64,000 bases of DNA from a bacterium (GTDB lineage Bacteria; Bacteroidota; Ignavibacteria; UBA10030). A program made the translations under genes and the position numbers. Shown here piece by piece: positions 17,701 through 44,600 of this stretch (positions are counted from its first letter, which is position 1; the number at the start of each line of letters is the position of its first letter). Under the pieces are notes generated by a model. The model ran no database searches, was not told where the DNA came from, and worked only from the letters and a program-made list of their open reading frames with translations. The stretch spans positions 1-64,000 of the forward strand of contig JAZDJN010000018.1 of assembly GCA_043803945.1 (NCBI GenBank). The letters run 5' to 3'.

Positions 17701-17760
17701 CCGCCCTGCCCGCCGAAATGAAATTCATGCAGGCGGGCAAGGACGCCAAAATCGCCAAGA
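17701..17760. repeat. Short intergenic repeat: hairpin CCGCCCTGCCCGCC-loop-GGCGGGCAAGG followed by GACGCCAAAATCGCCAAGAA. On the reverse strand the tail reads TTCTTGGCGATTTTGGCGTC. Family members are at 5742-5793 and 20890-20960.
   Basis: Direct reading. It lies immediately after the stop codon of the SPFH gene. Confidence 0.6.
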
Positions 17761-18178: not shown

Positions 18179-18276
18179 AAATGTACACAAAAAACAGAGA
18201 GCAGACGGTTTGTCTGCTCTCTGCAAACTCTATGCTTCATACTTTCTACTTAATACTTCTCACGTCTCACTGCTTT

Positions 18277-18699
18277 CTACTTGAGGCTAAGTTTAATTCC
18301 AATCAACGCCTTCGCAAACTCCACATCCTTTTTATACTTGAACGTTATTGTCAGCCCGCTGATCTTATTATAGTATTTTCCTTTTTTGAATTGCTCCTTT
18401 AACTCATCCGAAATCGCACTTTTCTCGATTATCTCTTTGGCTTTATCTGTAAAGTAGAAGGTGATTCTAAACGTGCCTTGAAGAACGGAAAGCCAGAAGA
18501 TAGTTTTTTTCTTCCTCGTTACTTTCATCAGCCAGCTTTTTCCGTCGTTGTAGTATCTCCATTCTTCGGAGATGTCCGGATGGTAGGTATGGATATATTC
18601 AAATAATGAAATCCACAGGCTTTTCGACTTGCCGAGATGGGAGAAGATGAGTTCTTCTGTTGGGTGTTGGGTCTTGTCTGTGAGGATGGGATTATCCAC
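18277..18699 (-). CDS. Hypothetical 140-aa protein of unrecognised family. A degraded partial copy lies at 25860-26075.
   Basis: ORF with a GTG start. Its promoter-proximal ~215 bp are ~75% identical to 25860-26075. Confidence 0.5.
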   Translation of the reverse strand: MDNPILTDKTQHPTEELIFSHLGKSKSLWISLFEYIHTYHPDISEEWRYYNDGKSWLMKVTRKKKTIFWLSVLQGTFRITFYFTDKAKEIIEKSAISDELKEQFKKGKYYNKISGLTITFKYKKDVEFAKALIGIKLSLK

Positions 18700-18864
18700 G
18701 TCTGTTCTCCTTGTCTACAATTGATGAGAGTGTTTTCTCGTTTATTCTTGTATGCAATCAGAAAAATATCACAAGCAGAGTTATGGAACGAAAGAAAAGC
18801 AATATAATTCCTGACAGCAGGCACACCTGGCACCGGAACGTTGCGCTGAATATATTTATACCGG

Positions 18865-19029
18865 TCAGGATTTCTCCTTGGACTCACGGCCGTTTTGCTC
18901 CTTGTAGCCGAACAAACCGAAGAGAGCAAACAAGCCATACAACCCGTACAAAACCGGATTGTCAAGTGTGGAGCCGAGAGAGCCAAGCAAACCAAGAAAT
19001 CCCAGGAACCCGAGCATGTTGAGTTTCAT
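18865..19029 (-). CDS. 54-aa Gly/Leu/Phe-rich small membrane peptide (MKLNMLGFLGFLGLLGSLGS…LYGLYGLFALFGLFGYKEQNGRESKEKS). It is a possible toxin, holin-like or bacteriocin-like peptide.
   Basis: ATG preceded by aaggag at -7. It has two hydrophobic GxxG-repeat segments and a charged tail, and sits 184 bp downstream of the OLD-family gene. Confidence 0.4.
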   Translation of the reverse strand: MKLNMLGFLGFLGLLGSLGSTLDNPVLYGLYGLFALFGLFGYKEQNGRESKEKS

Positions 19030-19275
19030 CGTTTTTCTCCTTTTGATTGTTAGTTGAGAAAATATTCTTTGGGTGCCCGCTGAGCATAACATTTAGGCAA
19101 AACGCCGTCCGCCGAAAGCGGATGGAGTAAGCACTTTGCATTTAGCCAACCTTTGTTTCACCATCGCCTTTCTAGCGTGCAAGCGTTTACCCGCCATGTT
19201 ATACCATTGGGCGGTCCGTTTTGCGTTTGTTATATGTCGCGCATCTGATTGGCGTCAGCCGCGAACTTCAAAGAC

Positions 19276-20808
19276 CTATAGAACGGACTTGATGCTCTGG
19301 CAAAACTGGAGAAGATCGCTTCCCGCGATATCTGGAAGAGACATGGAAGCCAGAATTCGAAAGATCCTTCTCGTACTCTTGAGTTCACCTTTCCACCAGT
19401 CTTCATTGTGAAGCTTGTCTGCAAGTTGACGCCAAGGTGGAACATCGGGATTAATTTTCTCGAGTTGACTTGGGACGATCGAACCGAAGGCCGCGCGAAC
19501 TGCAGCCAGTGTATAGTAGTTCTCTAAGCAGTACCTTGAAAGTTGTATCGGGATTAAACCAATCTTACGGCAATTCGCTATGAATGCATTCTGCGCGGCA
19601 GTGTTGCTGGTGTCAAGATCCAACAACGCGAAGGTGTTTCGAATCTGAACAAATGGAGTAGGGTCGAAATACATCATCATTGATCCAGCAAGAAAGACAT
19701 GAGAAACTGAGGCGCTACGGGATGCTCCTAACCAGTTCCTTACGATATAGTCTATGACAAGCAAATCTGTTTTACCCTCGGTAATGAGAACTGCGTCCGA
19801 GGTCAGGTTATCAATGGCGAGGACTCCAATGTTAGATAAAGCATCTGCACGGCTGGTGTTGTCGTCAATTGTTATCTCACCATTGTCGTATTTGCAGAAG
19901 TATATTCGATCGACCAGATCTGGATTTAGAAAGACGGGCGAGTGGGTCGAAAGAATAAACTGCCGATCTTCAACTGAGTTCAAGAATGAGAGTAGTTTCC
20001 GTTGGAGGTCCGGATGCAAGTGGTTTTCTGGCTCCTCGACAAGCAACAACTGGTTATCACCGTCGAGCGAATAAAGAAGAATTGACAATAGCTCAGGGAG
20101 TCCGAGCCCTTCATTTTGTGCAGGAATCCAGGGACCGCCAATTTTTCTGAACTGTAATTGAATGCCTGGCGGGTGGCGATCCCTGAGCATCTGAATGTCA
20201 AACTCGTTTCCGGTGATGTCGCAAAAACTCGAATGGATTCGGTCGAAGACGAGTCTCTCAGCAGTATCTGGCATTTGGTTCTTCAGATAGAACAGACGGG
20301 ACAATGCGTTTGCGGCCTCAGAGTCCAGGTTTTCCATTGGGTGTGCTTCAGTCTCAGGTGGCAGCCTCCTTTTTGGAGATAGAAGCAGAGGCTTACCGCC
20401 TTCGATCACATGGGAAATTAGTGCGTGTGCAATGCGTTTGGCGTCAATATCAAGACCATATGTCCTCACGAGGGATGTCTGTTTGCACTCGTCGACTAAG
20501 GCCAAGGCCTTGGACTCAGAACTACAGAAGAGTATCTCGCCATCTAGACGGTGCATTATTTTGGCTACCCAATCGTCAATTTCGTGCCGAGAGGGTTGAG
20601 CGTAGTTTGCGATTTGGCCACGTACAACGGATTCTGTCTTGGGCGACTGTTGGTACGTGACTCCAATATCGGTGTATTCAACTATCTTTCTGAGGATGGT
20701 CGATTTACCGCTAGAATTTCTTCCGGTGATAATGTTGACTTTGCCCAAGTCTAAGAGAGTCTGGGATTTTATCACCGGAGATGAGTCGACATGCAGGTGT
20801 TGAATCAT
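19276..20808 (-). CDS. OLD-family nuclease: N-terminal ABC-type ATPase (Walker A GRNSSGKST; Walker B/D-loop LLLVEEPENHLHP) and C-terminal Toprim domain (ITEGKTD … LLDLDTS).
   Basis: 510 aa. The P-loop, ABC signature-like region and Toprim glutamate/DxD motifs were all read directly. Confidence 0.65.
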   Translation of the reverse strand: MIQHLHVDSSPVIKSQTLLDLGKVNIITGRNSSGKSTILRKIVEYTDIGVTYQQSPKTESVVRGQIANYAQPSRHEIDDWVAKIMHRLDGEILFCSSESKALALVDECKQTSLVRTYGLDIDAKRIAHALISHVIEGGKPLLLSPKRRLPPETEAHPMENLDSEAANALSRLFYLKNQMPDTAERLVFDRIHSSFCDITGNEFDIQMLRDRHPPGIQLQFRKIGGPWIPAQNEGLGLPELLSILLYSLDGDNQLLLVEEPENHLHPDLQRKLLSFLNSVEDRQFILSTHSPVFLNPDLVDRIYFCKYDNGEITIDDNTSRADALSNIGVLAIDNLTSDAVLITEGKTDLLVIDYIVRNWLGASRSASVSHVFLAGSMMMYFDPTPFVQIRNTFALLDLDTSNTAAQNAFIANCRKIGLIPIQLSRYCLENYYTLAAVRAAFGSIVPSQLEKINPDVPPWRQLADKLHNEDWWKGELKSTRRIFRILASMSLPDIAGSDLLQFCQSIKSVL

Positions 20809-21011
20809 GATGTTGTGTTTCGTTCTTGATGGTAGATCCGATTTAGATTAACTATCCTTATTTAGATTTCATTTCGACATAACCAAATGAGCGCCTGCCC
20901 GCCATCTTACTGGGCGGGAGCCTGAACACCGAAACGAAGTGTAGGCGGGCGTCGCAAGCACGATTCCTGTTAGCTGGCGTTTGAAGTACACAGCTCGAGA
21001 CATAAAATGTA

Positions 21012-21476
21012 TTAGCGAGCACGAGTAAGCGCGAGTGATATTAGATTCATGGTTATCTGACTGTATTGCATCAGGAAACTCTGTGCTTCATCTAGTTTGT
21101 CGTATCCGAGGGTATTGAAAATGTAATGTACGTGTTCTGAAAATAGCTTTTGTATGCGGAGATCAGGGCTGTAATTCTGAAAAAGTGCTGTGGAAACATG
21201 GGCAGCACATTTTACCATTTCGAGCTCAGGGCTATCTTCGATGAACTCAACCTTGCATTGCAAATAAAGACGCGCATCGAATATAGCCTTAAGCTCATCA
21301 GCTGGCATAACCGAACCAAAGAGATAGCAATCGATCCGCCCTTCGTTTGCGCGATTCACTGGGATAAGTGAATTACAAAGATTCCTGGATAAGAGATCAG
21401 TAGCGATCTGACGCGATAACTGCATAATCTCTGAAGCAGATGCGCTGTCAAGAAATATTTTCACAATCGTATTCAT
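21012..21476 (-). CDS. Hypothetical 154-aa cytoplasmic protein. It lies between the 281-aa gene and the OLD gene.
   Basis: ORF lying 12 bp downstream of the 281-aa ORF. No motif was recognised. Confidence 0.4.
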   Translation of the reverse strand: MNTIVKIFLDSASASEIMQLSRQIATDLLSRNLCNSLIPVNRANEGRIDCYLFGSVMPADELKAIFDARLYLQCKVEFIEDSPELEMVKCAAHVSTALFQNYSPDLRIQKLFSEHVHYIFNTLGYDKLDEAQSFLMQYSQITMNLISLALTRAR

Positions 21477-21488
21477 TTTGATGTTAGC

Positions 21489-22334
21489 TCAATATTGAGG
21501 TTTGGGGGGCTTAATTTTGGAGTATATATGTCCGGTCGCGTAATCATAGAACCAGACTTCCAGAAGTCGTATGTGTAGATTGTAGGTTTGATTGAACCGC
21601 TCAGACGGATTTCGAAACGTCGCACGATGATAATATACATGTGTAGACACGTAGGGTTGGATTGGGACACCTATAAACATTGCGCTAATAGAAGCGCGTT
21701 TGGATCTTGCTTCTTGAGGTGACATGTGAAGACGAAGCAAAAAACACTGCTCGTAGTCTCCCTCTAATGAATCTATTGGTAACTTATCAAGATCAGACAA
21801 TACAAGATCATAGGACATGCTTTCAGTAGAATTGATAGTAACTTTTGCTCCAAATGCATTCGTGGCGGTATATGGTGATATGTTCTTCGATTCAAAAACC
21901 CAGGTGATTGACTTATGATCTGGTGTACTGTCACTGCTGGCTGATGAAAGGATGCACTTTACCGTAAGTATCTGTTGATCTGCATCGTAAGACGGATGAA
22001 CTCGAAAAGCACGAAAAGCCAGGGTACTATTGAAATTGTATGAGCCGAGAATAGGCTTTGCAAGTTCAGCGTGAATCCTTTCGTTAAAATGCACGGTGGT
22101 TTCGAATTCGTCCTTTATCGTTTTTTGAAATCGCTTATCGATAATAGTATAAAGTTGCTTCAAATTGTGTCCATTGAATTTGGGTGGTAGCTTCGAGAGC
22201 GACGTATCAAAAGTCATTGTGGAATATTTCGAAGCTATATTGGCGAAACGTGACTGAGAGTGTGCAAGCAGGTGATATGTACATACGAACACTATCAGGA
22301 TTCCAGATTGTAATGCAAGAACTGATCGTCGCAT
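21489..22334 (-). CDS. Hypothetical 281-aa exported or membrane-anchored protein.
   Basis: N-terminal hydrophobic segment (GILIVFVCTYHLLA). No family was recognised. Confidence 0.4.
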   Translation of the reverse strand: MRRSVLALQSGILIVFVCTYHLLAHSQSRFANIASKYSTMTFDTSLSKLPPKFNGHNLKQLYTIIDKRFQKTIKDEFETTVHFNERIHAELAKPILGSYNFNSTLAFRAFRVHPSYDADQQILTVKCILSSASSDSTPDHKSITWVFESKNISPYTATNAFGAKVTINSTESMSYDLVLSDLDKLPIDSLEGDYEQCFLLRLHMSPQEARSKRASISAMFIGVPIQPYVSTHVYYHRATFRNPSERFNQTYNLHIRLLEVWFYDYATGHIYSKIKPPKPQY

Positions 22335-22503
22335 TTATGGTCCTTGGTCGATTTTATTATCTATGTGAAAACCTTCCACTGCAAATGCCAGCTACGGCAA
22401 TTACGCACTGCGTCTTTGCACAATCCGTGGAGAGAAAAAACTCGGAGCATGTATTTCTTCTCCATGATGACATGGACGCCTCAATGTGCTTGGTGTATGT
22501 TAG

Positions 22504-22576
22504 TAGATCGAATCTCTTCGGTTACGAAGGCGGTGCCTTCTCTCGGTGTGCATCATCCAACCAGTTCCCCCATCTA
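22504..22576. repeat. Copy A (5' core only, ~70 bp) of a recurring non-coding element: tagatcgaatctcttcggttacgaaggcggtgccttctctcggtgtgcatcatccaaccagttcccccatc.
   Basis: About 90% identical to the first 70 bp of the copies at 23335 and 29022. It abuts the methyltransferase stop codon and lies 170 bp 5' of the 281-aa gene. Confidence 0.8.
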
Positions 22577-23257
22577 GCGGGAAACCATCTCACAAAAGAG
22601 GCTCGATTCATCTACTTCAACTATTGTCGTATTTACTCTAAGCCCTGTGGTGAGCGCAAGGAAACGATCTCGTCCTATTGTGGAAGCTGTAAATCCATCC
22701 TTGCAAACGATCAGCCCGTTCCCGGTCTTGTCAAAGTCGATTTCTCCCACGAGTCCGACCTCCGATTGTCGACGAAACCATTCGAGCCGGTATTCCCAGA
22801 ACTTGTCCGAGTAGCTTGAGAACAGGATGGTTCCGCCATGCCTGGCCACTCGAATGCTCTCCCGGAGAAGATGTTCCTGGTCGGCGTGGAAAGCCGATAC
22901 CCCGTTCTGGATGCAGATGACAACATCAAAAATTCCATCACGAAAAGAAAGCTGTGCCGCATCCATTTGGATCAAGAAACAGTTTGATGTACCGGGGAGT
23001 GATTCCTGACCATGCAGCAAACTGGAAATGGAGGTATCAATTCCCACAACCCATCGAGCTTTTTTGGCGAGTGAAGGAATTATCCGTCCGTAGCCACATC
23101 CTAATTCAAGCACCAGGTCGACTGCTCTGATCCTGTCGAGAACAAAGTTGAGCTCTGCCTCAAGATATTGTTTAACACGTTGCGGGGCAATGTCGTAGCA
23201 ACATTGCAGCCGTTCTGCGGAGAGTCTCTCAATGTAGTAATCATTCATACGACTCAT
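22574..23257 (-). CDS. Class I SAM-dependent methyltransferase (small-molecule type).
   Basis: 227 aa. Motif I is LELGCGYG and the post-I acidic residue is GIDTS. No DPPY/NPPW DNA-methyltransferase motif is present. Confidence 0.75.
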   Translation of the reverse strand: MSRMNDYYIERLSAERLQCCYDIAPQRVKQYLEAELNFVLDRIRAVDLVLELGCGYGRIIPSLAKKARWVVGIDTSISSLLHGQESLPGTSNCFLIQMDAAQLSFRDGIFDVVICIQNGVSAFHADQEHLLRESIRVARHGGTILFSSYSDKFWEYRLEWFRRQSEVGLVGEIDFDKTGNGLIVCKDGFTASTIGRDRFLALTTGLRVNTTIVEVDESSLFCEMVSR

Positions 23258-23334
23258 TTCTCACAACGTCTGTGTTCGCTGTTTTAAGACGGGGATGCCC
23301 GGTTGATCATAAATACGCTGTTGTCTTTTAATAG

Positions 23335-23568
23335 ATTACATCCATTCGGTTGCGAAGGGAGAACCTTCTCTCGGTGTGCATCATCCAACCCGTTCCCCCA
23401 TTAAACGATACATGATACTCTGCAACGTTAGCAGAATTGGGGGAGATTGTCAAGAAAATAGAAAAGGAGAAGCATGAAGTAGAAAGATTACAGAAGGCAG
23501 ATTGCAGCAAGCAGACCGTAGAAAGCAATGTCCGCCACACTTTTTGGCGGAGACATGAAGTGTGAAGC
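23335..23568. repeat. Copy B (full length, ~235 bp) of the recurring element. The 5' core is followed by a ccagttccccca/tgggggag long-range pairing, the motif agtagaaagattacagaaggcagattgcagcaagcagaccgtagaaagc, and the hairpin tccgcc-acacttttt-ggcgga.
   Basis: About 90% identical to 29022-29258 over its full length. It lies 78 bp 5' of the methyltransferase gene. Confidence 0.85.
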
Positions 23569-23702
23569 GGGTAGATGGATGCTCAACCTTGCCTGTCACA
23601 GACGCCAGGAATATACCTTGTCTCTTTCCCCTCTTGTCATGCCAGCGTAGGCTGGCATCCAGATAAAGGGCACTATAAAAGAAATCTTTTACAAAAACAT
23701 AT

Positions 23703-25493: not shown

Positions 25494-25859
25494 GGTGAAT
25501 CCTCCTGACATGGTATGGATGATTGGGGCCGATACTATGAATAGGCGCGTCGTTCTATTAAATAGAATACGCTGTCTCCTAAGACGGGTTTTCAAATGGG
25601 TAAGTTTCAAGGACGCCGGGTGAGGAGGATAGATGGTACAGAACCACGGTTCAGCGGTACAAAGTGGCGGTGTTTTTCTCGTTCTTGACATTTCTCGTTC
25701 CCAAACTCCGTTTGGGAACGCAGACTGAAAAGCTCTGCTTTACCAATCAAACAGCTAATTGTTACTTATGTTCAGAATAATACAGGCGGAGCTTGATAGG
25801 CATCATTTAATAGCAGAGTGTTTGCGCGAGAGAAATAATGGAGGTCGTATTATTTGTTT

Positions 25860-26075
25860 TTCTACCTTGTTCCTTCCCTTGGCAAACTTTTTCCATTGTT
25901 GTAGCATCTCCATTGTTTAGAGATGTCTGGATAAATGATGTAGATATCGTCAAATAGTGCCTATCACAGGCTTTTCGTTTTGCCGATAGTTGATAAGTTT
26001 AGTTCTTCTGTTGGGTCTTGAGTCTTGTCATGAGAATGGGGTATCCACAAATGTTCTTCCTGACTACAATTGCAG
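25860..26075 (-). pseudogene. Degraded partial copy of the 5' region and first ~60 codons of the 18277-18699 gene. It carries a premature stop at codon 7.
   Basis: About 75% nucleotide identity to 18540-18735, including the upstream non-coding stretch. The frame is interrupted by TGA. Confidence 0.6.
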
Positions 26076-26111: not shown

Positions 26112-26894
26112 TTAGGCAACATCAAGCCTAAGCGCTAACTGGGTTAGGGCAAGACCACCCAGGTACCATATGCCCATTTCTCTTGCATATGCTTTTGCTA
26201 ATGGATGAAAATCTGAGGTCGTCCAAAATGCAAAAACAATTGGTTGAAGAGAGCCGACCTTCGAAGCATATGTTCTCTTAAGCAAAAAGGCCCTTCTTGT
26301 CGCTGATCCAATAAATTCTCGAACGTCTTTCTCGGTGATGTTATTTCCTGTTGCATATCGCTTAGCCTGACCAATTACTACTGCAAAAGCACCAGACGGT
26401 GCAGGACCGAAACGTGATAATGGAAGTTCGAAGCCAGTGAAATCAACTCCCTGATCATATGGTCCGCCCTCAACAATCGCCTTCGCACCAAGGGAATCAA
26501 GAATTCGTTTACAGAAATGTTCAAACTCTATTGGGGATCCTTTTTGAAGTTGGTTAAGAAGAATAATCTCGGGCCTATCGAGAATTTTGAAGTGTGTTGT
26601 AGAACCTTCGAGCGTAACAATAAATCGTGCTGTAATTCCGTCTGTGAGATTTTGATTAGTGATTGCATCGAGTTCGTGCACAATAAATGGCTCGATATGC
26701 TCAGATAATTCCGAGATTTCTTCAATAGATTTGCTAATTAATTTTGTACTCAAGGTTTCAAAAATAACGTTTCTCAATGATTTAAATTCTGTGTTTGAAG
26801 CCTGATCTGAAATCCAGAGTGCAACATCTTGGGGTCTAGGATCAGCCATACTATTCTCCAATAAGTCGTATTCTGTCTTCGAATACTCTCTCAA
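26112..26894 (-). CDS. Mrr-like restriction endonuclease domain protein. The C-terminus has PD-(D/E)xK features (GGPYDQGVDFTGFE … VVIGQAKRY). The N-terminal ~130 aa are of unknown function.
   Basis: 260 aa. The motifs resemble the Mrr catalytic domain. It overlaps the upstream ParB-like gene by 44 bp. Confidence 0.55.
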   Translation of the reverse strand: MREYSKTEYDLLENSMADPRPQDVALWISDQASNTEFKSLRNVIFETLSTKLISKSIEEISELSEHIEPFIVHELDAITNQNLTDGITARFIVTLEGSTTHFKILDRPEIILLNQLQKGSPIEFEHFCKRILDSLGAKAIVEGGPYDQGVDFTGFELPLSRFGPAPSGAFAVVIGQAKRYATGNNITEKDVREFIGSATRRAFLLKRTYASKVGSLQPIVFAFWTTSDFHPLAKAYAREMGIWYLGGLALTQLALRLDVA

Positions 26895-27960
26895 TTCGAT
26901 TTTTCAGAGAAGTCAAAGCAGCAATATCTTCTTCGCTTAGAGATCGTAATGAATCGGGCGATAGGGTTGCTAATACCGCTTGAGCCTGAATAATGGTTGG
27001 TTGCCAATCTTCTTGATGTTCAGCTTCAAATCGACCAAGCGCTCTTTCAATAGTACCGCCTTGAGAGCGAAATAGTGCCATTGCAACTTCATCATCAATA
27101 AATATTCCAAGTGATCTAACGCTTTTTGCTTCAGGCAGTTTGGGATCTCCTAACTCACCGTCATCGTCAGGTTCTCCAACCATCCAACTATAAAACTCTC
27201 TGAGATGAGAAGCGTTAGTAAAACGTCGTTCGTTGTCGCTCCAACTGAGCCATTCGCGTACGTTCGCTCGTTTGAAAACTTCTTCGAAATAACTATACTT
27301 ACGTGGAATAGCATATTCACTAAACTCATCATCTGCTTGCATTTGCTCGAGTGCTAGGTACGATCTCCAAAGTTGATTCGCTGTACGAGTAGAGAGTCCT
27401 AAACTTTGGCCAGCTTCCTGTGGACCTACACCTGCTTCACGTAATACGTGAACTGTACGAGCCTTTTGATAAGCACCCCATTCTTTGATACCTGATACAT
27501 GTCGTAATCCAGGAAGAATCCACTTTGCTGAGTCTGGTGCTTGATTGTCGTCGAGGACAAGAACTTCTAGATCGGTAAAATTGATAATTTGTTCGTCATC
27601 AAATGTTTCTCTACCTGTCTCGTGAAGTTCGATTAGCCATTTAAGGGCCGAAATTCTCCTATTGCCTTCGATGACAACAAATTTTTGTGCGTCGGGATTG
27701 CCGTGCCATGGACGCACAACAATTCTATCCATTGGAAGAAATCCTAGAGTTTTTATTGTATCTCTAAGCTCCGTGACTTCAAAATTCCCGCTTTTCATCC
27801 TCTCAAATGTATCACGCTGTACTCTATCCTCTGAAAATCGAATCTCTGGAACCACATCAACTGGTTCACCAAGCTCAGCAAAACGTGGATTGTTAGGATC
27901 CAATAACAGAGTATTTAAATTAACGCGTCTTGGTATCATAAGGCTATAAAGATTTTGCAT
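26851..27960 (-). CDS. ParB/Srx-like nuclease-domain protein (N-terminus) with an HTH-like segment and a C-terminal extension.
   Basis: 369 aa. VIEGNRRISALKWL fits the ParB N-terminal GxxRxxA box. GQSLGLSTRTANQLWR is HTH-like. Confidence 0.5.
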   Translation of the reverse strand: MQNLYSLMIPRRVNLNTLLLDPNNPRFAELGEPVDVVPEIRFSEDRVQRDTFERMKSGNFEVTELRDTIKTLGFLPMDRIVVRPWHGNPDAQKFVVIEGNRRISALKWLIELHETGRETFDDEQIINFTDLEVLVLDDNQAPDSAKWILPGLRHVSGIKEWGAYQKARTVHVLREAGVGPQEAGQSLGLSTRTANQLWRSYLALEQMQADDEFSEYAIPRKYSYFEEVFKRANVREWLSWSDNERRFTNASHLREFYSWMVGEPDDDGELGDPKLPEAKSVRSLGIFIDDEVAMALFRSQGGTIERALGRFEAEHQEDWQPTIIQAQAVLATLSPDSLRSLSEEDIAALTSLKNRIERVFEDRIRLIGE

Positions 27961-28124
27961 AATGTTCCTCTAATAAATTGTGAGTATTAATAAATTCTTT
28001 TGAGCACACCGTCAAATAACGTCTGGCACAAATTCAATAATATTATTATTCACAAAGTGACCCTCGGTGATGCATTTGTTAGAAAGCGTTTGCGAGTCAA
28101 CGCTCTGATAATTATTTCCCCTTC

Positions 28125-28823
28125 TCACTTTACTTTCCCGTGGTGATATCGCTGCCACGGTGTCTCTTTTGTGAGTTTATGAAGATGAGCGGCAACCCGG
28201 TTGTTTGAAATAACTGCTAAACGTATAATAAAGCCAAGATGATATTTAATTACTGACTTGTGAACCCTCTTCGTGGTTGAAACACGATGTGCAATACTGC
28301 CTCTCAAAGTAATTAGATCTGAAAGTTTCTTCTGTGACTTTTGAAAAGTCATATTAAACCAGTGCCAGTTTTCAGACAAACGTGAATAGCCAATGAGGTT
28401 CTCAAATAGGTGGTCGATCATATCGGCGCGAGGTGTATTAAAATTGTTAATGTACCGTCCAAGAGTCTCTTCCTTATGATCATTTAAGATTTTGATCCAA
28501 CCTTTTCCAGCTAGCTTCCAAACCAAGCGCTCATCAGCAGCAGATTTCAATTCTTTCGAAGCTAAGACTAAAATCTTGCTTGGGAATACATCGGGTTTCT
28601 TGGCTTTTACTAAAAGAAATTCAAAAGCAGCCTTACCGAGATCCTCAATATAGGCTTCCCAACATGCAACCAGAAGTACTACACAACTTTTATTGATTAC
28701 TTCAACCTTAGATTTATAGCCAGGCTTTTTCCCAGATATCTGCTCATGGATATCAAGCAGCCTCCTTACTTCTTTTAGATTCTGGCGAAGGTTCTCTATG
28801 TGGGTGATGTGCTTGCTTATCAT
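28125..28823 (-). CDS. Candidate HEPN-domain protein (abortive-infection-like), with an R-x4-H-R motif (LRGSIAHRVS).
   Basis: 232 aa, all-alpha-like composition. The Rx4H motif lies in the C-terminal third. The call rests on the motif only. Confidence 0.35.
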   Translation of the reverse strand: MISKHITHIENLRQNLKEVRRLLDIHEQISGKKPGYKSKVEVINKSCVVLLVACWEAYIEDLGKAAFEFLLVKAKKPDVFPSKILVLASKELKSAADERLVWKLAGKGWIKILNDHKEETLGRYINNFNTPRADMIDHLFENLIGYSRLSENWHWFNMTFQKSQKKLSDLITLRGSIAHRVSTTKRVHKSVIKYHLGFIIRLAVISNNRVAAHLHKLTKETPWQRYHHGKVK

Positions 28824-29021: not shown

Positions 29022-29258
29022 TTTAGATCGAATCTCTTCGGTTGCGAAGGCGGCGCCTTCTCTCGGTGTGCATCATCCAACCAGTTCCCCCATCAAACGC
29101 TACATGATACTCTGCAACGTTAGCAGAATTGGGGGAGAATGTCAAGAGAATGGAAAAGGAGAAGCAGGAAGTAGAAAGATTACAGAAGGCAGATTGCAGC
29201 AAGCAGACCGTAGAAAGCAATGTCCGCCACACTTTTTGGCGGAAACATGAGGTGTGAA
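29022..29258. repeat. Copy C (full length) of the recurring ~235-bp element.
   Basis: About 90% identical to 23335-23568. It lies 46 bp 3' of the ORF6N gene end and ~200 bp 5' of the HEPN-like gene. Confidence 0.85.
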
Positions 29259-29303
29259 TCTGGCAGTGTTTGAGAGGGAAAATCTTTTCAATGCAGCTAT
29301 AGA

Positions 29304-29825
29304 TTAATTGCTTTCCAGCCCGAATCCAATTGGGCGTCTCTTCGGCTCAGGAGGTTTCATAAGTTCGCGAATCGCTTCGAATACTATTTTAAATTGCACG
29401 TCATATTTTCTTTCTAATTCATTCAGCTTGTGAGCTAAGTTTTCATGCGTGGCAAGTATTTGACGCAGATGCACAAACGTACGCATGATTTCAATATTCA
29501 CTCTGATTGCACGCTTACTCCTCAAGACGCTTGAAAGCATTGCGACTCCTTGCTCGGTAAACGCGTAGGGAATGGCTCTGCGAAGACCACCCCAACTTGA
29601 AGTCACAATCTGTGATTTCAACGTAAGGAACTCTTCCGAGGATAATTGGAACATAAAATCGATCGGAAAACGGTCAGCGTTTCGTTTCACTGCCTGAACC
29701 AACACGCGTGGCGCAACCTGGTATAATCGGGCCAGGTCTGTGCTGAGCATGACCTTCTCACCACGCAGGAAATAGATACGTTGTTCGATTCTTTCCTTCG
29801 ATAAAATAGACTGTTTTGTTTTCAT
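29304..29825 (-). CDS. ORF6N-domain protein (KilA-N-related DNA-binding domain, often phage or mobile-element associated).
   Basis: 173 aa. [43 protein letters not shown] … [20 protein letters not shown] matches the ORF6N domain. Confidence 0.7.
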
Positions 29826-30016
29826 CGACGTTCATTGACCTCTCATTATTATCCTATGGTGAGATCCGTTTCGCTGGATTCAACTGACCCTAATAAATCG
29901 CAGTTGCCTCTCCGTCCAATATGATATGGGCATATCGATTATGAACACTCTCCGGCTATATCTCCAGAGTGGTATAGAAATCTAAATGCTGTGTTTTTGT
30001 CTTTTGAGAATGATTT

Positions 30017-30090
30017 ATTCGGTTGCGCGGGTGTCAGTTTCTCTCGGTGTGCACCATCCAACCAGTTCCCCATCAAACGCTACACGATGC
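30017..30090. repeat. Copy D (5' core only, diverged) of the recurring element, ~190 bp 5' of the ORF6N gene.
   Basis: ttcggttgcg…tttctctcggtgtgcaccatccaaccagttccccatcaaacgctaca aligns with the cores of copies A–C. Confidence 0.7.
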
Positions 30091-30282
30091 TGAATAATGA
30101 TAGGAGAAAACAAAGCCAATGTTAAGATCACCGCAACAGAGATCGTTAAGAAAGTTTTCTATAGTTACCCGGTTTGAAGGCTCTGGCCACCCGCGTTCGC
30201 GGGTGAAACACGTTCCTCTTTGGTTTTCATCTATTTTTTCTCTAAACTTTCGCCAACAACATCAACTTGGAAAGGATGCCTC

Positions 30283-43417: not shown

Positions 43418-44600
43418 TGTGATGTTACGCAAAATTGAAATAATCGTATATTTGAACACAGCCCAAAGAGTGAAACTATGTAACTGGTGAAATTAATCGA
43501 AGGATAGCCCATGGACAAGAAACTCCTTCAATTATATGTTGATGGTCTTCTGAGTACTTTTTCCCGTTCAACGGCGACATCGTTTTCAGCACTCGTTGAG
43601 CGAGAATACAGCCATGACGCTATCACTCGATTTTTATCGAGCGATGATTTCACCGCTCGCGATCTTTGGTATCAGGTAAAATCCATTGTACGGTCAATCG
43701 AAAGTCCGTACGGTGTTTTAATTGTTGATGATAGTATCTCCCACAAACCATACATGGACGAAAATGAAATTGTGGGATGGTATTATGATCATACAAGTGG
43801 TAAAAGTATCAAGGGTGTTAATATCGTTTCTGTTATGTATCACAGCCAAGGTCTTTCCATCCCGGTGTCGTTCACGATCGTGAAAAAATCAAAAATGATC
43901 GTTGATTCGAAAACCGGTAAAGAAAAACGTGTGAGCGTCGAAACCAAGAATGAACATTTTCGAACAATGCTTGCTCAGTGTAGGAAAAATATGCGATTTC
44001 GTTATGTATTAAGCGATGTTTGGTACGCATCAGTCGAAAATATGAAATACATTAAAAATATTTTGCACCGAGATTTTGTGATGCCGTTGAAAACAAATCG
44101 CAAAGTCGCATTATCTGCGGCAGAGAAACGCGCTGGTAACTATGTAACAGTCGAGACACTACTACCCAAAGAAAATGAACACATCACAGTATATCTTGAA
44201 GGGCTGACCTTTCCGGTCTCGCTTATTCGACACGTCTATAAAAACAAAGACGGCTCAGTGGGTGTGTTGTACCTTTGTTGTAGTGATAGAACACTTACAT
44301 ATCAGCATATCATCGACCTCTATCAAAAACGATGGAAGATCGAAGAGTACCATAAAGCACTAAAACAACAATGTGCGTTGTCTGTATCACCTGCTCATAC
44401 GGTGAGGACACAATCGTCACATATATTTTGTTCTCTCTGTGCATTTGTAAAACTTGAACTGATGCACAGAATAACCGCGGTCTCATATGAAGGGTTAAAA
44501 CTCAATCTGCATTTACATGCACTGAAAACCGCATTCAAGCATTTGAGATCTCTTCAACCGATCGATTGGACCGCAAAACCTATTTTTGCGTAACATCAGA
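43418..44600 (+). mobile_element. Insertion sequence (~1.18 kb) with 15-bp terminal inverted repeats TGATGTTACGCAAAA, encoding a DDE transposase of the IS4/IS5-like (DDE_Tnp_1) superfamily.
   Basis: The inverted repeats were read at 43420-43434 and 44584-44598 (reverse complement). The single ORF fills the element. Confidence 0.7.
43511..44593 (+). CDS. DDE transposase (IS4/IS5-like superfamily). The C-terminal YQKRWKIEEYHKALKQ motif is typical of this superfamily.
   Basis: 360 aa. The YxxRWxIE…K signature surrounding the catalytic E was read directly. Confidence 0.7.
   Translation: MDKKLLQLYVDGLLSTFSRSTATSFSALVEREYSHDAITRFLSSDDFTARDLWYQVKSIVRSIESPYGVLIVDDSISHKPYMDENEIVGWYYDHTSGKSIKGVNIVSVMYHSQGLSIPVSFTIVKKSKMIVDSKTGKEKRVSVETKNEHFRTMLAQCRKNMRFRYVLSDVWYASVENMKYIKNILHRDFVMPLKTNRKVALSAAEKRAGNYVTVETLLPKENEHITVYLEGLTFPVSLIRHVYKNKDGSVGVLYLCCSDRTLTYQHIIDLYQKRWKIEEYHKALKQQCALSVSPAHTVRTQSSHIFCSLCAFVKLELMHRITAVSYEGLKLNLHLHALKTAFKHLRSLQPIDWTAKPIFA

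What the first reader, a model, noticed from the sequence alone, without database searches (positions are those of the whole stretch)
19276..22334. OLD-family ATPase/Toprim nuclease with two unknown upstream genes, a candidate new OLD-associated module
The 510-aa protein has a clear Walker A (GRNSSGKST), an ABC-like D-loop and Toprim E/DxD motifs, which places it in the OLD family. The companion is not a UvrD-type helicase (as in Gabija), a reverse transcriptase (as in retrons) or a DUF4435 protein (as in PARIS). Instead, a 281-aa exported protein and a 154-aa cytoplasmic protein lie immediately upstream, 12 bp apart, on the same strand. A 200-bp spacer carrying a hairpin repeat separates them from the OLD gene, so it is unclear whether they are co-transcribed with it. 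A tiny membrane peptide lies downstream.
Basis: partly seen in the sequence, partly recalled or inferred. Interest (0 to 1): 0.6.

Follow-up and report, generated by a model that had tools for sequence, protein, structure and literature searches.

The report
Stand-alone OLD nuclease beside unrelated cassette
The 510-residue protein is a real but divergent single-gene OLD-type ATPase-nuclease (a known kind of anti-phage enzyme), and the two genes upstream of it are a separate two-gene unit that appears to have landed next to it as a neighbouring mobile gene cassette, so there is no new three-gene system.

Summary
Three minus-strand ORFs sit at the stated coordinates, and the 510-aa protein has every ABC-ATPase and Toprim catalytic motif of the OLD family. 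The proposed three-gene module is not supported.

- **No shared neighbour.** In 46 loci (about 37 independent) with full-length homologues (28-70% identity, many phyla), nothing is shared except the OLD gene itself. Homologues of the 281-aa protein, the 154-aa protein and the 54-aa peptide were never found beside an OLD homologue.
- **The two upstream genes are their own pair.** They recur together on four other metagenomic contigs, where sequence was long enough without an OLD gene. On one contig, attC-type integron recombination sites flank them.
- **The cassette ends are in the window.** They are GT-AGCTGGC upstream of the 281-aa gene and GCCAGCTAAC in the 203-nt spacer, so the spacer is a cassette boundary.
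- **OLD looks like its own cassette.** It is followed by a 152-nt attC-like palindrome. Homologues in other genomes lie in attC arrays.

No integron integrase lies in the window, so the array is probably decayed. Verdict: a new, divergent member of the class 1 (single-gene) OLD nucleases. Interest is modest.

The parts
19276..20808 (-). OLD-family ATPase/Toprim nuclease gene (510 aa), class-1-type (single gene)
   Evidence: Pfam AAA_21/AAA_15. hhalign against PF20469-bearing OLD proteins gives E 2.6e-42 over 454 columns. The best PDB sequence match is 6p74, Thermus scotoductus class 1 OLD. AF2 pLDDT is 87.9, and Foldseek's top hits include retron Eco8 OLD, 6p74 and GajA.
20875..20883 (-). GTTATGTCG: GTTRRRY-like core site, the proposed junction where the OLD cassette begins (75 nt before the ATG)
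   Evidence: Read from the sequence. It is the near reverse complement of CGACATATAAC downstream of OLD. The same arrangement occurs in L003 (GTTAGGGTGC/GCACCATAAC) and L023 (GTTATGCGCA/TGCGCATAAC).
19084..19235 (-). 152-nt attC-like imperfect palindrome downstream of OLD (ATATAAC ... GTTATGC), the proposed 3' end of the OLD cassette
   Evidence: In the DNA fold, ATAACA pairs with TGTTAT and GCAAAACG pairs with CGTTTTGC. The fold has z -3.3. A constrained fold gives -27.2 kcal/mol.
20877..20975 (-). attC-like site (AGCTAAC ... GTTATGT) within the 203-nt spacer; 3' end of the 281+154-aa cassette, apparently decayed
   Evidence: GCCAGCTAAC lies 33 nt after the 154-aa stop codon. It matches GGCAGCTAAC, GCAACCTAAC, GGGCCTAAC and GCCGCCTAAC at the same place in L094, L096, L097 and L098. 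The 3' part CAGGCGCTC-N-GTTA is shared with L094. The fold is weak (z -1.3).
21012..21476 (-). 154-aa cytoplasmic protein of a small unnamed family (conserved C34, N41-R42, D49-C50-Y51, H117); second gene of a two-gene cassette
   Evidence: Seven relatives were found by exhaustive HMMER and aligned in A5. In L094, L095/L098 and L096 it is paired with a homologue of the 281-aa protein.
21489..22334 (-). 281-aa exported protein of a small unnamed family (motifs KDEFETT, YDADQ, TNAFGA); first gene of the two-gene cassette
   Evidence: Homologues P0050-P0053. AF2 pLDDT is 78.8, with no PDB or BFVD fold match. It matches phrog_13753 at E 7.8e-8.
22387..22396 (-). CGTAGCTGGC: degenerate GTTRRRY core site marking the 5' end of the 281+154-aa cassette
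   Evidence: It aligns with ACGTTAGCTGCCATTTGCAG (L094) and TCGTTAGGCGGCATTTGCG (L098) immediately upstream of the homologous genes. It is the inverted partner of GCCAGCTAAC at 20969-20978.
18865..19029 (-). 54-aa hydrophobic ORF downstream; a separate unit, not part of the OLD gene's conserved context
   Evidence: no family match, and no relative near any OLD homologue.

Best explanation
The 510-aa gene encodes a divergent single-gene (class-1-type) OLD nuclease. It has an N-terminal ABC ATPase with a four-helix insertion (residues about 56-131) and a C-terminal Toprim two-metal nuclease.

By analogy with characterised class 1 OLD enzymes, the most likely mechanism is this:
- The enzyme acts alone, as a homo-oligomer.
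- ATP binding and hydrolysis by the ABC head licenses the Toprim site.
- The Toprim site then cuts nucleic acid during phage infection. DNA nicking is the most likely activity, and tRNA cleavage is the alternative.
- The cut blocks phage replication or kills the infected cell.

The 281-aa and 154-aa genes are not partners of the OLD gene. They form a separate, conserved two-gene unit: an exported beta-rich protein plus a small cytoplasmic Cys/His-motif protein, of unknown function. This unit travels as an integron-type gene cassette.

In this genome that cassette (about 22395-20883) lies directly upstream of the OLD gene, which looks like a cassette of its own (about 20882-19084). Both sit in a decayed cassette array that has no integrase within the window. 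The 203-nt spacer with its hairpin is therefore a cassette junction (attC-like site), not an intra-operon element.

Shown: family membership, catalytic motifs, absence of any conserved neighbour, conservation of the separate pair, and the cassette-end signatures. Inferred: the enzymatic activity, the defence role and how the two cassettes came to be adjacent.
For: OLD identity:
- (domains, motifs, PDB and fold matches, profile-profile comparison).
- In the HMM alignment, E344 and D348 align to TsOLD E377 and D381. PMC7049728 names these as metal A and metal B ligands.

Stand-alone status:
- Contexts of homologues at 44-65% identity all differ.
- tblastn of the 281-aa, 154-aa and 54-aa proteins against 93 loci gives no hit beside any OLD homologue.
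- All-vs-all clustering of ORFs in 46 loci finds only the OLD gene shared.
- Upstream neighbours are heterogeneous: ThiC, phosphomannose isomerase, a kinase, AbiEii, RES.

Separate pair:
- The 154-aa family exists.
- The two homologues are adjacent in L094, L095/L098 and L096.
- In L098, 600 nt downstream of the pair holds a different small cassette and no OLD gene.

Cassette nature:
- L098 has three attC-like repeats with RYYYAAC/GTTRRRY ends, folding at z -3.1 and -7.7.
- The cassette ends covary between genomes: GCTGGC/GCCAGC in the window, GCTGCC/GGCAGC in L094, GGCGGC/GCCGCC in L098.
- OLD homologues in L008 and L003 lie in arrays of the same attC family.
- 4 of 37 OLD loci have GTT/AAC cassette ends at least 9/10 complementary, against 0.11 expected (p 5e-6).
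- The window element 19235-19084 folds as an attC-like hairpin.

Known background:
- Class 1 OLD enzymes are single genes (PMC10568477, PMC7049728).
- Vc OLD nicks DNA and defends on its own (PMC12392090).
- P2 OLD cuts tRNA anticodon stems (PMC12445682).
- Integron cassettes carry defence genes (bioRxiv 10.1101/2024.07.02.601719; PMC12614218).
Against: - No integron integrase was found among the window ORFs scanned.
- A generic RYYYAAC...GTTRRRY scan of the window is not above shuffles.
- The attC model built from L098/L008/L003 finds nothing in the window.
- The attC-like site after the 154-aa gene folds poorly (z -1.3), and its upstream core site lacks one T.
- The window's OLD cassette ends match only with a 2-nt indel.
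- Pfam's OLD Toprim model PF20469 does not hit the protein directly.
- The protein has an ~80-residue helical C-terminal region. TsOLD is described as lacking a C-terminal helical domain.
- Contigs carrying the pair are short (0.9-2.1 kb), so absence of OLD next to the pair is directly visible only in L097 and L098.
- No expression or activity data exist. Co-transcription through the spacer is not excluded.
Confidence: 0.75

Rival explanations
1. The 281-aa exported protein, the 154-aa protein and the OLD nuclease form a new three-gene OLD-associated defence module, co-transcribed across the 203-nt spacer.
For: All three genes are on the same strand and adjacent. No canonical terminator is called in the spacer. 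In a cassette array, genes can be read through from an upstream promoter.
Against: None of 46 OLD-homologue loci has a relative of either upstream gene. The pair recurs without OLD. A conserved cassette boundary lies between the pair and OLD. G+C content differs: 0.415 for 21-22 kb against 0.46-0.485 for the OLD gene.
Confidence: 0.04
2. The protein is a fused PARIS-type (class 4) AriA-AriB protein rather than a class 1 OLD. It would act as a sensor ATPase that releases or activates a DUF4435-type Toprim tRNase.
For: The best PADLOC hits by E-value are AriA models (1.3e-22), and an AriAB fusion model hits at 4e-15. AriA chains are second in the PDB sequence search (3.7e-13). Fused forms are reported to exist (PMC12392090).
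Against: The AriA and AriAB hits cover only the ATPase segment, about residues 190-300. Pfam gives no DUF4435 hit at E <= 0.1. No AriB chain appears among PDB matches at E <= 1. The full-length profile alignment to PF20469-type OLD proteins includes the Toprim domain (E 2.6e-42). The best PDB match, 6p74, runs from the ATPase into the Toprim glutamate.
Confidence: 0.06
3. The genes are independent, as in the best explanation, but the adjacency has nothing to do with integrons. The region would be an ordinary variable genomic island, and the attC-like features in the window would be chance or generic GC-rich hairpins.
For: No IntI was found in the window. The generic attC scan is at background. 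Model R1 finds nothing in the window. CCGCC-N-GGCGG hairpins are common in this window in general: 13 against 0.83 expected.
Against: A 20-nt non-coding block at the 5' cassette end is conserved between the window and L094, although the proteins are only 36-46% identical. The end boxes are complementary and covary in three genomes. Homologues of both the pair and the OLD gene lie in true attC arrays elsewhere.
Confidence: 0.15

Closest known systems
Class 1 OLD family nucleases (Thermus scotoductus OLD, PDB 6P74; phage P2 Old; Vibrio cholerae Vc OLD)
   Same: It is a single isolated gene of similar size (510 aa against 528 for the 6p74 chain). It has an ABC ATPase in which Glu replaces the Walker B Asp, and a His in the D-loop (E258/E259, H265), as described for TsOLD. 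A helical insertion sits in the ATPase. Toprim metal-A ligands (E344, D397, D399) and metal-B ligands (D348, C/S427, E429) are present.
   Different: Foldseek reports about 14% identity to 6p74, and the protein is about 26-29% identical to the nearest proteins that carry a PF20469 hit. It is not recognised by Pfam PF20469. Only a short stretch matches the PADLOC Old model. It has an ~80-residue helical C-terminal region with invariant D498/F502. Cys replaces the metal-B Ser in the window protein. Many family members are carried as integron-type cassettes.
Gabija GajA (class 2 OLD)
   Same: It shares the ATPase-Toprim architecture. GajA models hit residues 217-393, and 8sm3/8u7i are among the Foldseek matches.
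   Different: No UvrD/PcrA-like GajB gene lies downstream in the window or in any of 46 loci. The protein is about 70-120 aa shorter than the PADLOC GajA models that match it (most are 604-687 positions; two are 532-536).
PARIS AriA/AriB (class 4) and retron Eco8 OLD (class 3)
   Same: The ABC ATPase core is related (AriA 8ux9 at 3.7e-13). Retron Eco8 OLD is the top Foldseek hit.
   Different: There is no separate DUF4435 gene and no reverse transcriptase gene nearby. A search of 18-24 kb against known RNA families found no significant match, though a retron ncRNA was not specifically sought.
Integron gene cassettes that encode phage defence (BRiCs; sedentary chromosomal integron cassettes)
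   Same: Each unit is an ORF or ORF pair followed by an imperfect-palindromic site with AAC...GTT ends. The 5' end of each cassette is complementary to its own 3' site. Homologues lie in tandem arrays of one attC family.
   Different: No integron integrase or attI was seen in the window. The window's sites are dissimilar to each other and partly degenerate. At about 1.8 kb the OLD cassette is, from general knowledge, long for a cassette.

Membership tests
OLD family nucleases | N-terminal ABC-type ATPase with Walker A Lys, Walker B acidic residues, D-loop and H-loop | tested here: met
   Pfam AAA_21 at 1.1e-21 and AAA_15 at 4e-17. Invariant G29, N31, G34, K35, E258, E259, H265 and H289 in 25 homologues. 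Foldseek matches SMC/Rad50/OLD heads.
OLD family nucleases | C-terminal Toprim domain with metal-A ligands (Glu, DxD) and metal-B ligands (Asp four residues after the Glu; S/T-x-E) | tested here: met
   E344, D348, D397, D399 and E429 are invariant. E344 and D348 align to TsOLD E377 and D381 (residues named in PMC7049728). hhalign to PF20469-bearing OLD proteins covers the whole Toprim domain. Position 427 is Cys in the window protein and Ser in the family consensus.
OLD family nucleases | Recognition by the curated OLD Toprim profile (Pfam PF20469) or the PADLOC Old model over its length | tested here: inconclusive
   PF20469 gives no hit at E <= 0.1, and none of P0001-P0036 carries it. PADLOC Old hits at 1.8e-15 over residues 250-371 only. 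The profile-profile comparison is decisive instead.
Class 1 OLD | Isolated single gene with no conserved partner gene | tested here: met
   In 46 loci (37 non-redundant) only the OLD gene is shared. Neighbours are heterogeneous.
Class 1 OLD | Helical dimerisation domain inserted in the ATPase fold | tested here: inconclusive
   The AF2 model has four helices (56-64, 74-88, 98-110, 120-131) inserted after the Walker A strand-helix. No superposition on 6P74 and no oligomer prediction was possible.
Class 1 OLD | Lacks the class 2 Toprim helical insert and C-terminal helical domain | tested here: inconclusive
   The length (510 aa) fits class 1, but residues about 428-509 are helical in the model. 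Their relation to the class 2 helical domain was not resolved.
Class 2 OLD (Gabija) | [quoted passage not shown] | tested here: not met
   Downstream are a 54-aa ORF and a DUF3788 gene. No helicase cluster appears in 46 loci.
Class 3 OLD (retron) | Adjacent reverse transcriptase and msr/msd ncRNA | tested here: not met
   No RT domain appears in neighbouring ORFs. The 18-24 kb region has no Rfam match other than one chance-level snoRNA hit at E 0.14, below its gathering score.
Class 4 OLD (PARIS) | ATPase AriA with a separate (or fused) DUF4435 Toprim AriB | tested here: not met
   No DUF4435 hit in the protein or its neighbours. AriA similarity is limited to the ATPase core.
OLD family nucleases | ATP hydrolysis, metal-dependent nuclease activity and anti-phage phenotype | not testable with these tools
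   This needs biochemistry and phage assays.
Integron gene cassette | 3' attC site: imperfect palindrome with an RYYYAAC inverse core and a GTTRRRY core | tested here: inconclusive
   The OLD element 19235-19084 has ends ATATAAC/GTTATGC paired in the fold (z -3.3, -27.2 kcal/mol). The element of the pair, 20975-20877, has ends AGCTAAC/GTTATGT and a weak fold (z -1.3). The generic scan is at background. No IntegronFinder or general attC model was available.
Integron gene cassette | Cassette 5' end complementary to its own attC inverse core, and conserved across genomes | tested here: met
   For the pair: window GT-AGCTGGC/GCCAGCTAAC, L094 GTTAGCTGCC/GGCAGCTAAC, L098 GTTAGGCGGC/GCCGCCTAAC. For OLD: window GTTATGTCG/CGACATATAAC (2-nt indel), L003 9/10, L023 10/10. 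Enrichment has p 5e-6.
Integron gene cassette | Location in an array next to an integron integrase (intI) and attI | tested here: not met
   No tyrosine recombinase was found among window ORFs scanned by Pfam. The other 27 kb of the contig were not available. Arrays without a visible intI are seen in L003, L008 and L098.

The most novel reading that the evidence does not exclude
Two things may be new.

First, this divergent OLD clade escapes the current Pfam model and only partly matches the PADLOC Old model. It could be a widespread single-gene anti-phage nuclease that circulates as an unusually large integron cassette across distant phyla (FCB-group bacteria, Leptospira, Chloroflexia, Deltaproteobacteria).

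Second, the neighbouring pair (an exported 281-aa protein plus a 154-aa Cys/His-motif protein) could be a previously undescribed two-gene cassette system, for example an exported toxin or envelope factor with a cytoplasmic partner. The 281-aa protein's predicted fold matched nothing in PDB or BFVD; the 154-aa protein was not modelled.

A weaker form, not excluded, is that the two cassettes cooperate functionally in this one genome.
Probability: 0.2. Interest if true: 0.5.

Novelty: new member of a known kind. Interest (0 to 1): 0.3.

Why it matters
- **It removes a false lead.** There is no new class of OLD-associated multi-gene system here.
- **It adds a divergent clade to the class 1 OLD nucleases.** Only a few members of that class (P2 Old, Vc OLD, E. 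coli YbjD) have been tied to phage defence. Current domain models miss this clade, so it is probably under-counted in defence-system censuses.
- **It shows how adjacency can mislead.** Neighbouring cassettes in an array look like an operon but are assembled by site-specific recombination, so adjacency is not evidence of function.
- **It offers two test cases.** The attC-flanked OLD homologues and the unknown two-gene cassette are candidates for cassette-based screens for defence genes.

Tried and rejected
- **Spacer as terminator or structured RNA.** The spacer fold is not above shuffles (z -0.85), the scan calls no terminator, Rfam gives no hit, and upstream regions of homologues are not conserved.
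- **The 154-aa gene as an orphan or spurious ORF.** The word-indexed search found only the protein itself, but the exhaustive HMMER scan found 7 relatives.
- **Fold-based function for the 281-aa protein.** The AF2 model is usable (pLDDT 78.8), but PDB and BFVD searches gave only TM <= 0.2 matches to SSB-like and haemolysin-like folds at E >= 6e-4. The afdb50 library was unavailable.
- **Family attC covariance model to find sites in the window.** The model is specific to the L098/L008/L003 sequence family and found nothing in the window.
- **Crude RYYYAAC...GTTRRRY structural scan.** It does not discriminate from shuffles.
- **More contexts for the pair.** The metagenome scan gave one new locus (L098) and the viral scan gave none. 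An alignment of all 8 family members was too divergent for the pattern search.
- **L011 recombinase next to a homologue of the 281-aa protein as an IntI.** It scores 23 bits against a cut-off of 265 for TIGR02249 and lies beside a tRNA-like sequence, so it is an ordinary island integrase.
- **L097.** The ORF upstream of its 154-aa homologue is not detectably a relative of the 281-aa protein.
- **One script** timed out and was rerun.


Full report
**1. Observation**

- 19276-20808 (510 aa)
- 21012-21476 (154 aa)
- 21489-22334 (281 aa)

The two upstream genes are 12 nt apart. A 203-nt spacer (20809-21011) separates them from the 510-aa gene. A 54-aa hydrophobic ORF (18865-19029), preceded by an AGGAG-like site, lies 246 nt downstream.

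The spacer carries a short GC hairpin (CCCGCC-N9-GGCGGG). As a whole it does not fold better than shuffled sequence (z -0.85). It is not called as a terminator, has no Rfam match, and is not conserved upstream of homologous genes.

The window comes from a 91.6-kb contig of an unclassified bacterial MAG in NCBI. Por_Secre_tail (type IX secretion) proteins in the window suggest, from general knowledge, the FCB group.

**2. The 510-aa protein is an OLD-family nuclease**

Family searches:
- Pfam finds only the ATPase part (AAA_21, AAA_15).
- PADLOC models of AriA, NsnB, PtuA, Old and GajA hit mainly residues about 210-390.
- The search returned 36 strong homologues, mostly full length, at 29-71% identity. 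None carries a precomputed hit to the OLD Toprim model PF20469.

Alignment of 25 of these homologues (A1) shows the following as invariant:
- Walker A: G29, N31, G34, K35.
- R147.
- Walker B/D-loop: E258-E259-P260-E261-x-H263-x-H265.
- H-loop: H289.
- C-terminal part: E344-G345-x-x-D348, D397-x-D399, R425-Y426-x-x-E429-x-Y431.

Further comparisons:
- A profile of A1 finds PDB 6p74 (Thermus scotoductus class 1 OLD) as the best solved relative (3.7e-15). That alignment pairs E344 and D348 with TsOLD E377 and D381. Schiltz et al. identify these as metal A and metal B ligands, alongside D431/D433 and S478/E480 (PMC7049728).
- A profile-profile comparison with six OLD proteins that do carry PF20469 aligns 454 columns at E 2.6e-42. 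It includes EG-x-TD, D-x-D and the ENYY/EDYY motif.
- The AF2 model is confident (pLDDT 87.9). It shows a four-helix insertion at residues 56-131 in the ATPase and a beta-alpha Toprim core from about residue 339.
- Foldseek ranks retron Eco8 OLD, 6p74 and GajA among the top hits, together with SMC/Rad50 heads.

**3. It is a stand-alone gene**

Genomic contexts were recovered for homologues at 44-65% identity. A genome-collection scan gave 80 further loci. These came from Bacteroidota, Ignavibacteriales, Calditrichia, Chloroflexia, Acidobacteriota, Verrucomicrobiota, Leptospira, Sorangium, Metabacillus, Methanothrix, Thermoplasmatota and others.

- tblastn of the 281-aa, 154-aa and 54-aa proteins against all loci found no relative beside any OLD homologue.
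- All-against-all clustering of ORFs in the 46 loci with full-length homologues found no family shared beyond redundant contigs, apart from the OLD gene itself.
- The immediately upstream genes include ThiC, phosphomannose isomerase, a xylose-isomerase-like protein, a Ser/Thr kinase, an AbiEii-type nucleotidyltransferase and a RES-domain protein.

This matches the published definition of class 1 OLD, "single, isolated genes" (PMC7049728, PMC10568477). It excludes the class 2 (helicase), class 3 (retron) and class 4 (PARIS) contexts.

**4. The two upstream genes are their own unit**

The 281-aa protein has a signal-peptide-like N-terminus and a small family of relatives with conserved KDEFETT, YDADQ and TNAFGA motifs.

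The 154-aa protein looked like an orphan in the word-indexed search. The exhaustive HMMER scan found seven relatives of 144-204 aa. They share C34, N41-R42, D49-C50-Y51 and H117.

On contigs L094, L095/L098 and L096, a homologue of the 281-aa protein (35-39% identity) lies 19-59 nt upstream of a homologue of the 154-aa protein. The pair is therefore conserved in four independent contexts, counting the window.

Two qualifications:
- More distant relatives of the 281-aa protein (L011-L013) lack the partner and have no OLD gene nearby.
- The L097 relative of the 154-aa protein has a different upstream ORF.

Neither protein matches Pfam, NCBIfam or PADLOC. The 281-aa protein hits phrog_13753, a family of unknown function. 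Its model (pLDDT 78.8) matches no solved or viral fold. The pair's function remains unknown. My low-confidence guess is an exported effector or envelope protein with a cytoplasmic partner.

**5. Why they are neighbours: cassette boundaries**

*The pair in L098.* The pair is bracketed by ~160-nt repeats. These begin GCCGCCTAAC and end GTTAGGTGGC and are imperfect palindromes. Their DNA folds pair the two ends (z -3.1 and -7.7). From general knowledge, these are the hallmarks of integron attC sites (inverse core RYYYAAC, core GTTRRRY). PMC12614218 describes the conserved AAC triplet and the R and L boxes.

*The 3' end of the pair.* Every 154-aa-family gene is followed within 0-45 nt by such an AAC box:
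- window: GCCAGCTAAC
- L094: GGCAGCTAAC
- L096: GCAACCTAAC
- L097: GGGCCTAAC
- L098: GCCGCCTAAC

*The 5' end of the pair.* Upstream of the 281-aa homologues lies the complementary GTT box, followed by a shared block:
- window: CCGT-AGCTGGCATTTGCAG
- L094: ACGTTAGCTGCCATTTGCAG
- L098: TCGTTAGGCGGCATTTGCG

The two ends covary between genomes, as expected for a cassette whose 5' end pairs with its own attC. The spacer between the 154-aa gene and OLD therefore holds the 3' recombination site of the pair's cassette (20975-20877). In this genome that site looks decayed: it folds weakly, and its upstream core lacks one T.

*The OLD gene.* It shows the same signature:
- GTTATGTCG lies 75 nt before its ATG.
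- CGACATATAAC lies 37 nt after its stop codon.
- A 152-nt palindrome (19235-19084) follows, with paired ends (z -3.3; -27.2 kcal/mol).

*OLD homologues elsewhere.* They are cassettes in attC arrays:
- In L008 and L003/L004 the OLD homologue is followed within 2-30 nt by an attC of the same sequence family as in L098, inside arrays of 4-5 such sites.
- The ends of the L003 cassette are GTTAGGGTGC and GCACCATAAC.
- Among 37 non-redundant OLD loci, four have ends at least 9/10 complementary: L003, a deltaproteobacterium, a Chloroflexia MAG, and Leptospira at 10/10. Only 0.11 were expected (p 5e-6).

*Caveats.*
- No integrase was found in the window.
- A generic attC scan is at background.
- The family-specific model finds nothing in the window.

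I therefore describe the window region as a probable decayed array without an integrase in view, not as a proven integron.

**6. Mechanism**

This part is inferred by homology. The enzyme probably acts alone as a homo-oligomer. ATP turnover in the ABC head would gate a two-metal Toprim nuclease.

Characterised class 1 enzymes give two precedents:
- DNA nicking that blocks phage genome replication (Vc OLD, PMC12392090).
- ATP-activated cutting of tRNA anticodon stems (P2 OLD, PMC12445682).

I favour DNA nicking or cleavage (about 60:40). Nothing here discriminates between the two.

**7. Comparison, novelty and score**

This is a new, divergent member of a known kind, class 1 OLD. Two features set it apart:
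- Current Toprim profiles miss it.
- It is often carried on cassettes.

Integron cassettes that encode defence genes are already documented (bioRxiv 10.1101/2024.07.02.601719). The proposed three-gene module is not supported.

Interest is 0.3. The result mainly removes a false lead. It also flags an under-detected OLD clade and an uncharacterised two-gene cassette.

Noticed in passing
window 22504-22579, 23332-23574, 29024-29266, 30005-30108 (minus-strand sense); partial inverted copy 18212-18261: This is a repeat family of 76-243 nt with 82-95% identity over the core (64% for the fourth copy). Its invariant core is GGGGAACTGGTTGGATG-TGCACACCGAGAGAA. The copies lie 75-200 nt upstream of four minus-strand genes: the 281-aa gene, the methyltransferase, the HEPN gene and the ORF6N gene. 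The long copies also carry a TTGACA-type box and a hairpin. Rfam gave no hit for the two copies inside the 18-24 kb region searched; the other two copies were not searched. Four copies show no clear covariation.
   Followed up: partly
window 26112-28823 (minus strand), plus 29304-29825: This is a possible defence cluster. It holds an Mrr_cat restriction endonuclease-like gene (26112-26894) and a ParB-like protein matching PADLOC PDC-M38A at 5e-46 and PD-Lambda-5_A (26851-27960), whose ORFs overlap. A RiboL-PSP HEPN protein follows at 28125-28823, and an ORF6N-domain protein lies at 29304-29825.
   Followed up: partly
window 18506-18723 versus 25857-26072: The DUF3788 gene (18277-18699) has a degenerate partial copy in the intergenic region upstream of the M28 peptidase gene. 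Identity is 76% over 173 nt, and 81% over the next 31 nt.
   Followed up: no
window, 13 sites including 17701-17736, 19191-19214, 20899-20917, 23532-23550, 29224-29242: GC-rich hairpins of the form CCGCC-N4-30-GGCGG are strongly over-represented (13 found, 0.83 expected). Several lie in intergenic regions, and some lie inside ORFs. Two related copies (CCGCCCA...ATGGCGGG) flank the OLD gene.
   Followed up: partly
L003 7535-11535, L008 1611-4111, L098 1-2096: Three metagenomic contigs share one attC sequence family of 163-237 nt (5' GCCGCCTAACCAGTCGCTCAAGCTG, 3' CAGCTTAGCTCCGGTCCGTTAGGYGGC). The sites form arrays of small same-strand cassettes. One cassette pool thus contains both an OLD homologue and the 281+154-aa pair, at different positions. 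L003 also has a reversed HicAB pair just upstream of OLD.
   Followed up: partly
L023 6544-6685 (Leptospira sp. SA-E8), L019 6571-6704 (Chloroflexia MAG): OLD homologues at only about 30% identity also have perfect or near-perfect cassette ends and clean attC-like hairpins. This suggests the clade moves as cassettes across phyla.
   Followed up: partly
window 21489-22334: The exact 281-aa sequence is absent from the 5.8-billion-protein collection, although the neighbouring 154-aa and 510-aa proteins of the same NCBI contig are present. The gene may be uncalled, or called with another start, in the deposited annotation.
   Followed up: no
window 43511-44593: A DDE transposase gene (DDE_5/DDE_Tnp_1) lies in a low-G+C stretch (0.38-0.39 at 42-44 kb).
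   Followed up: no
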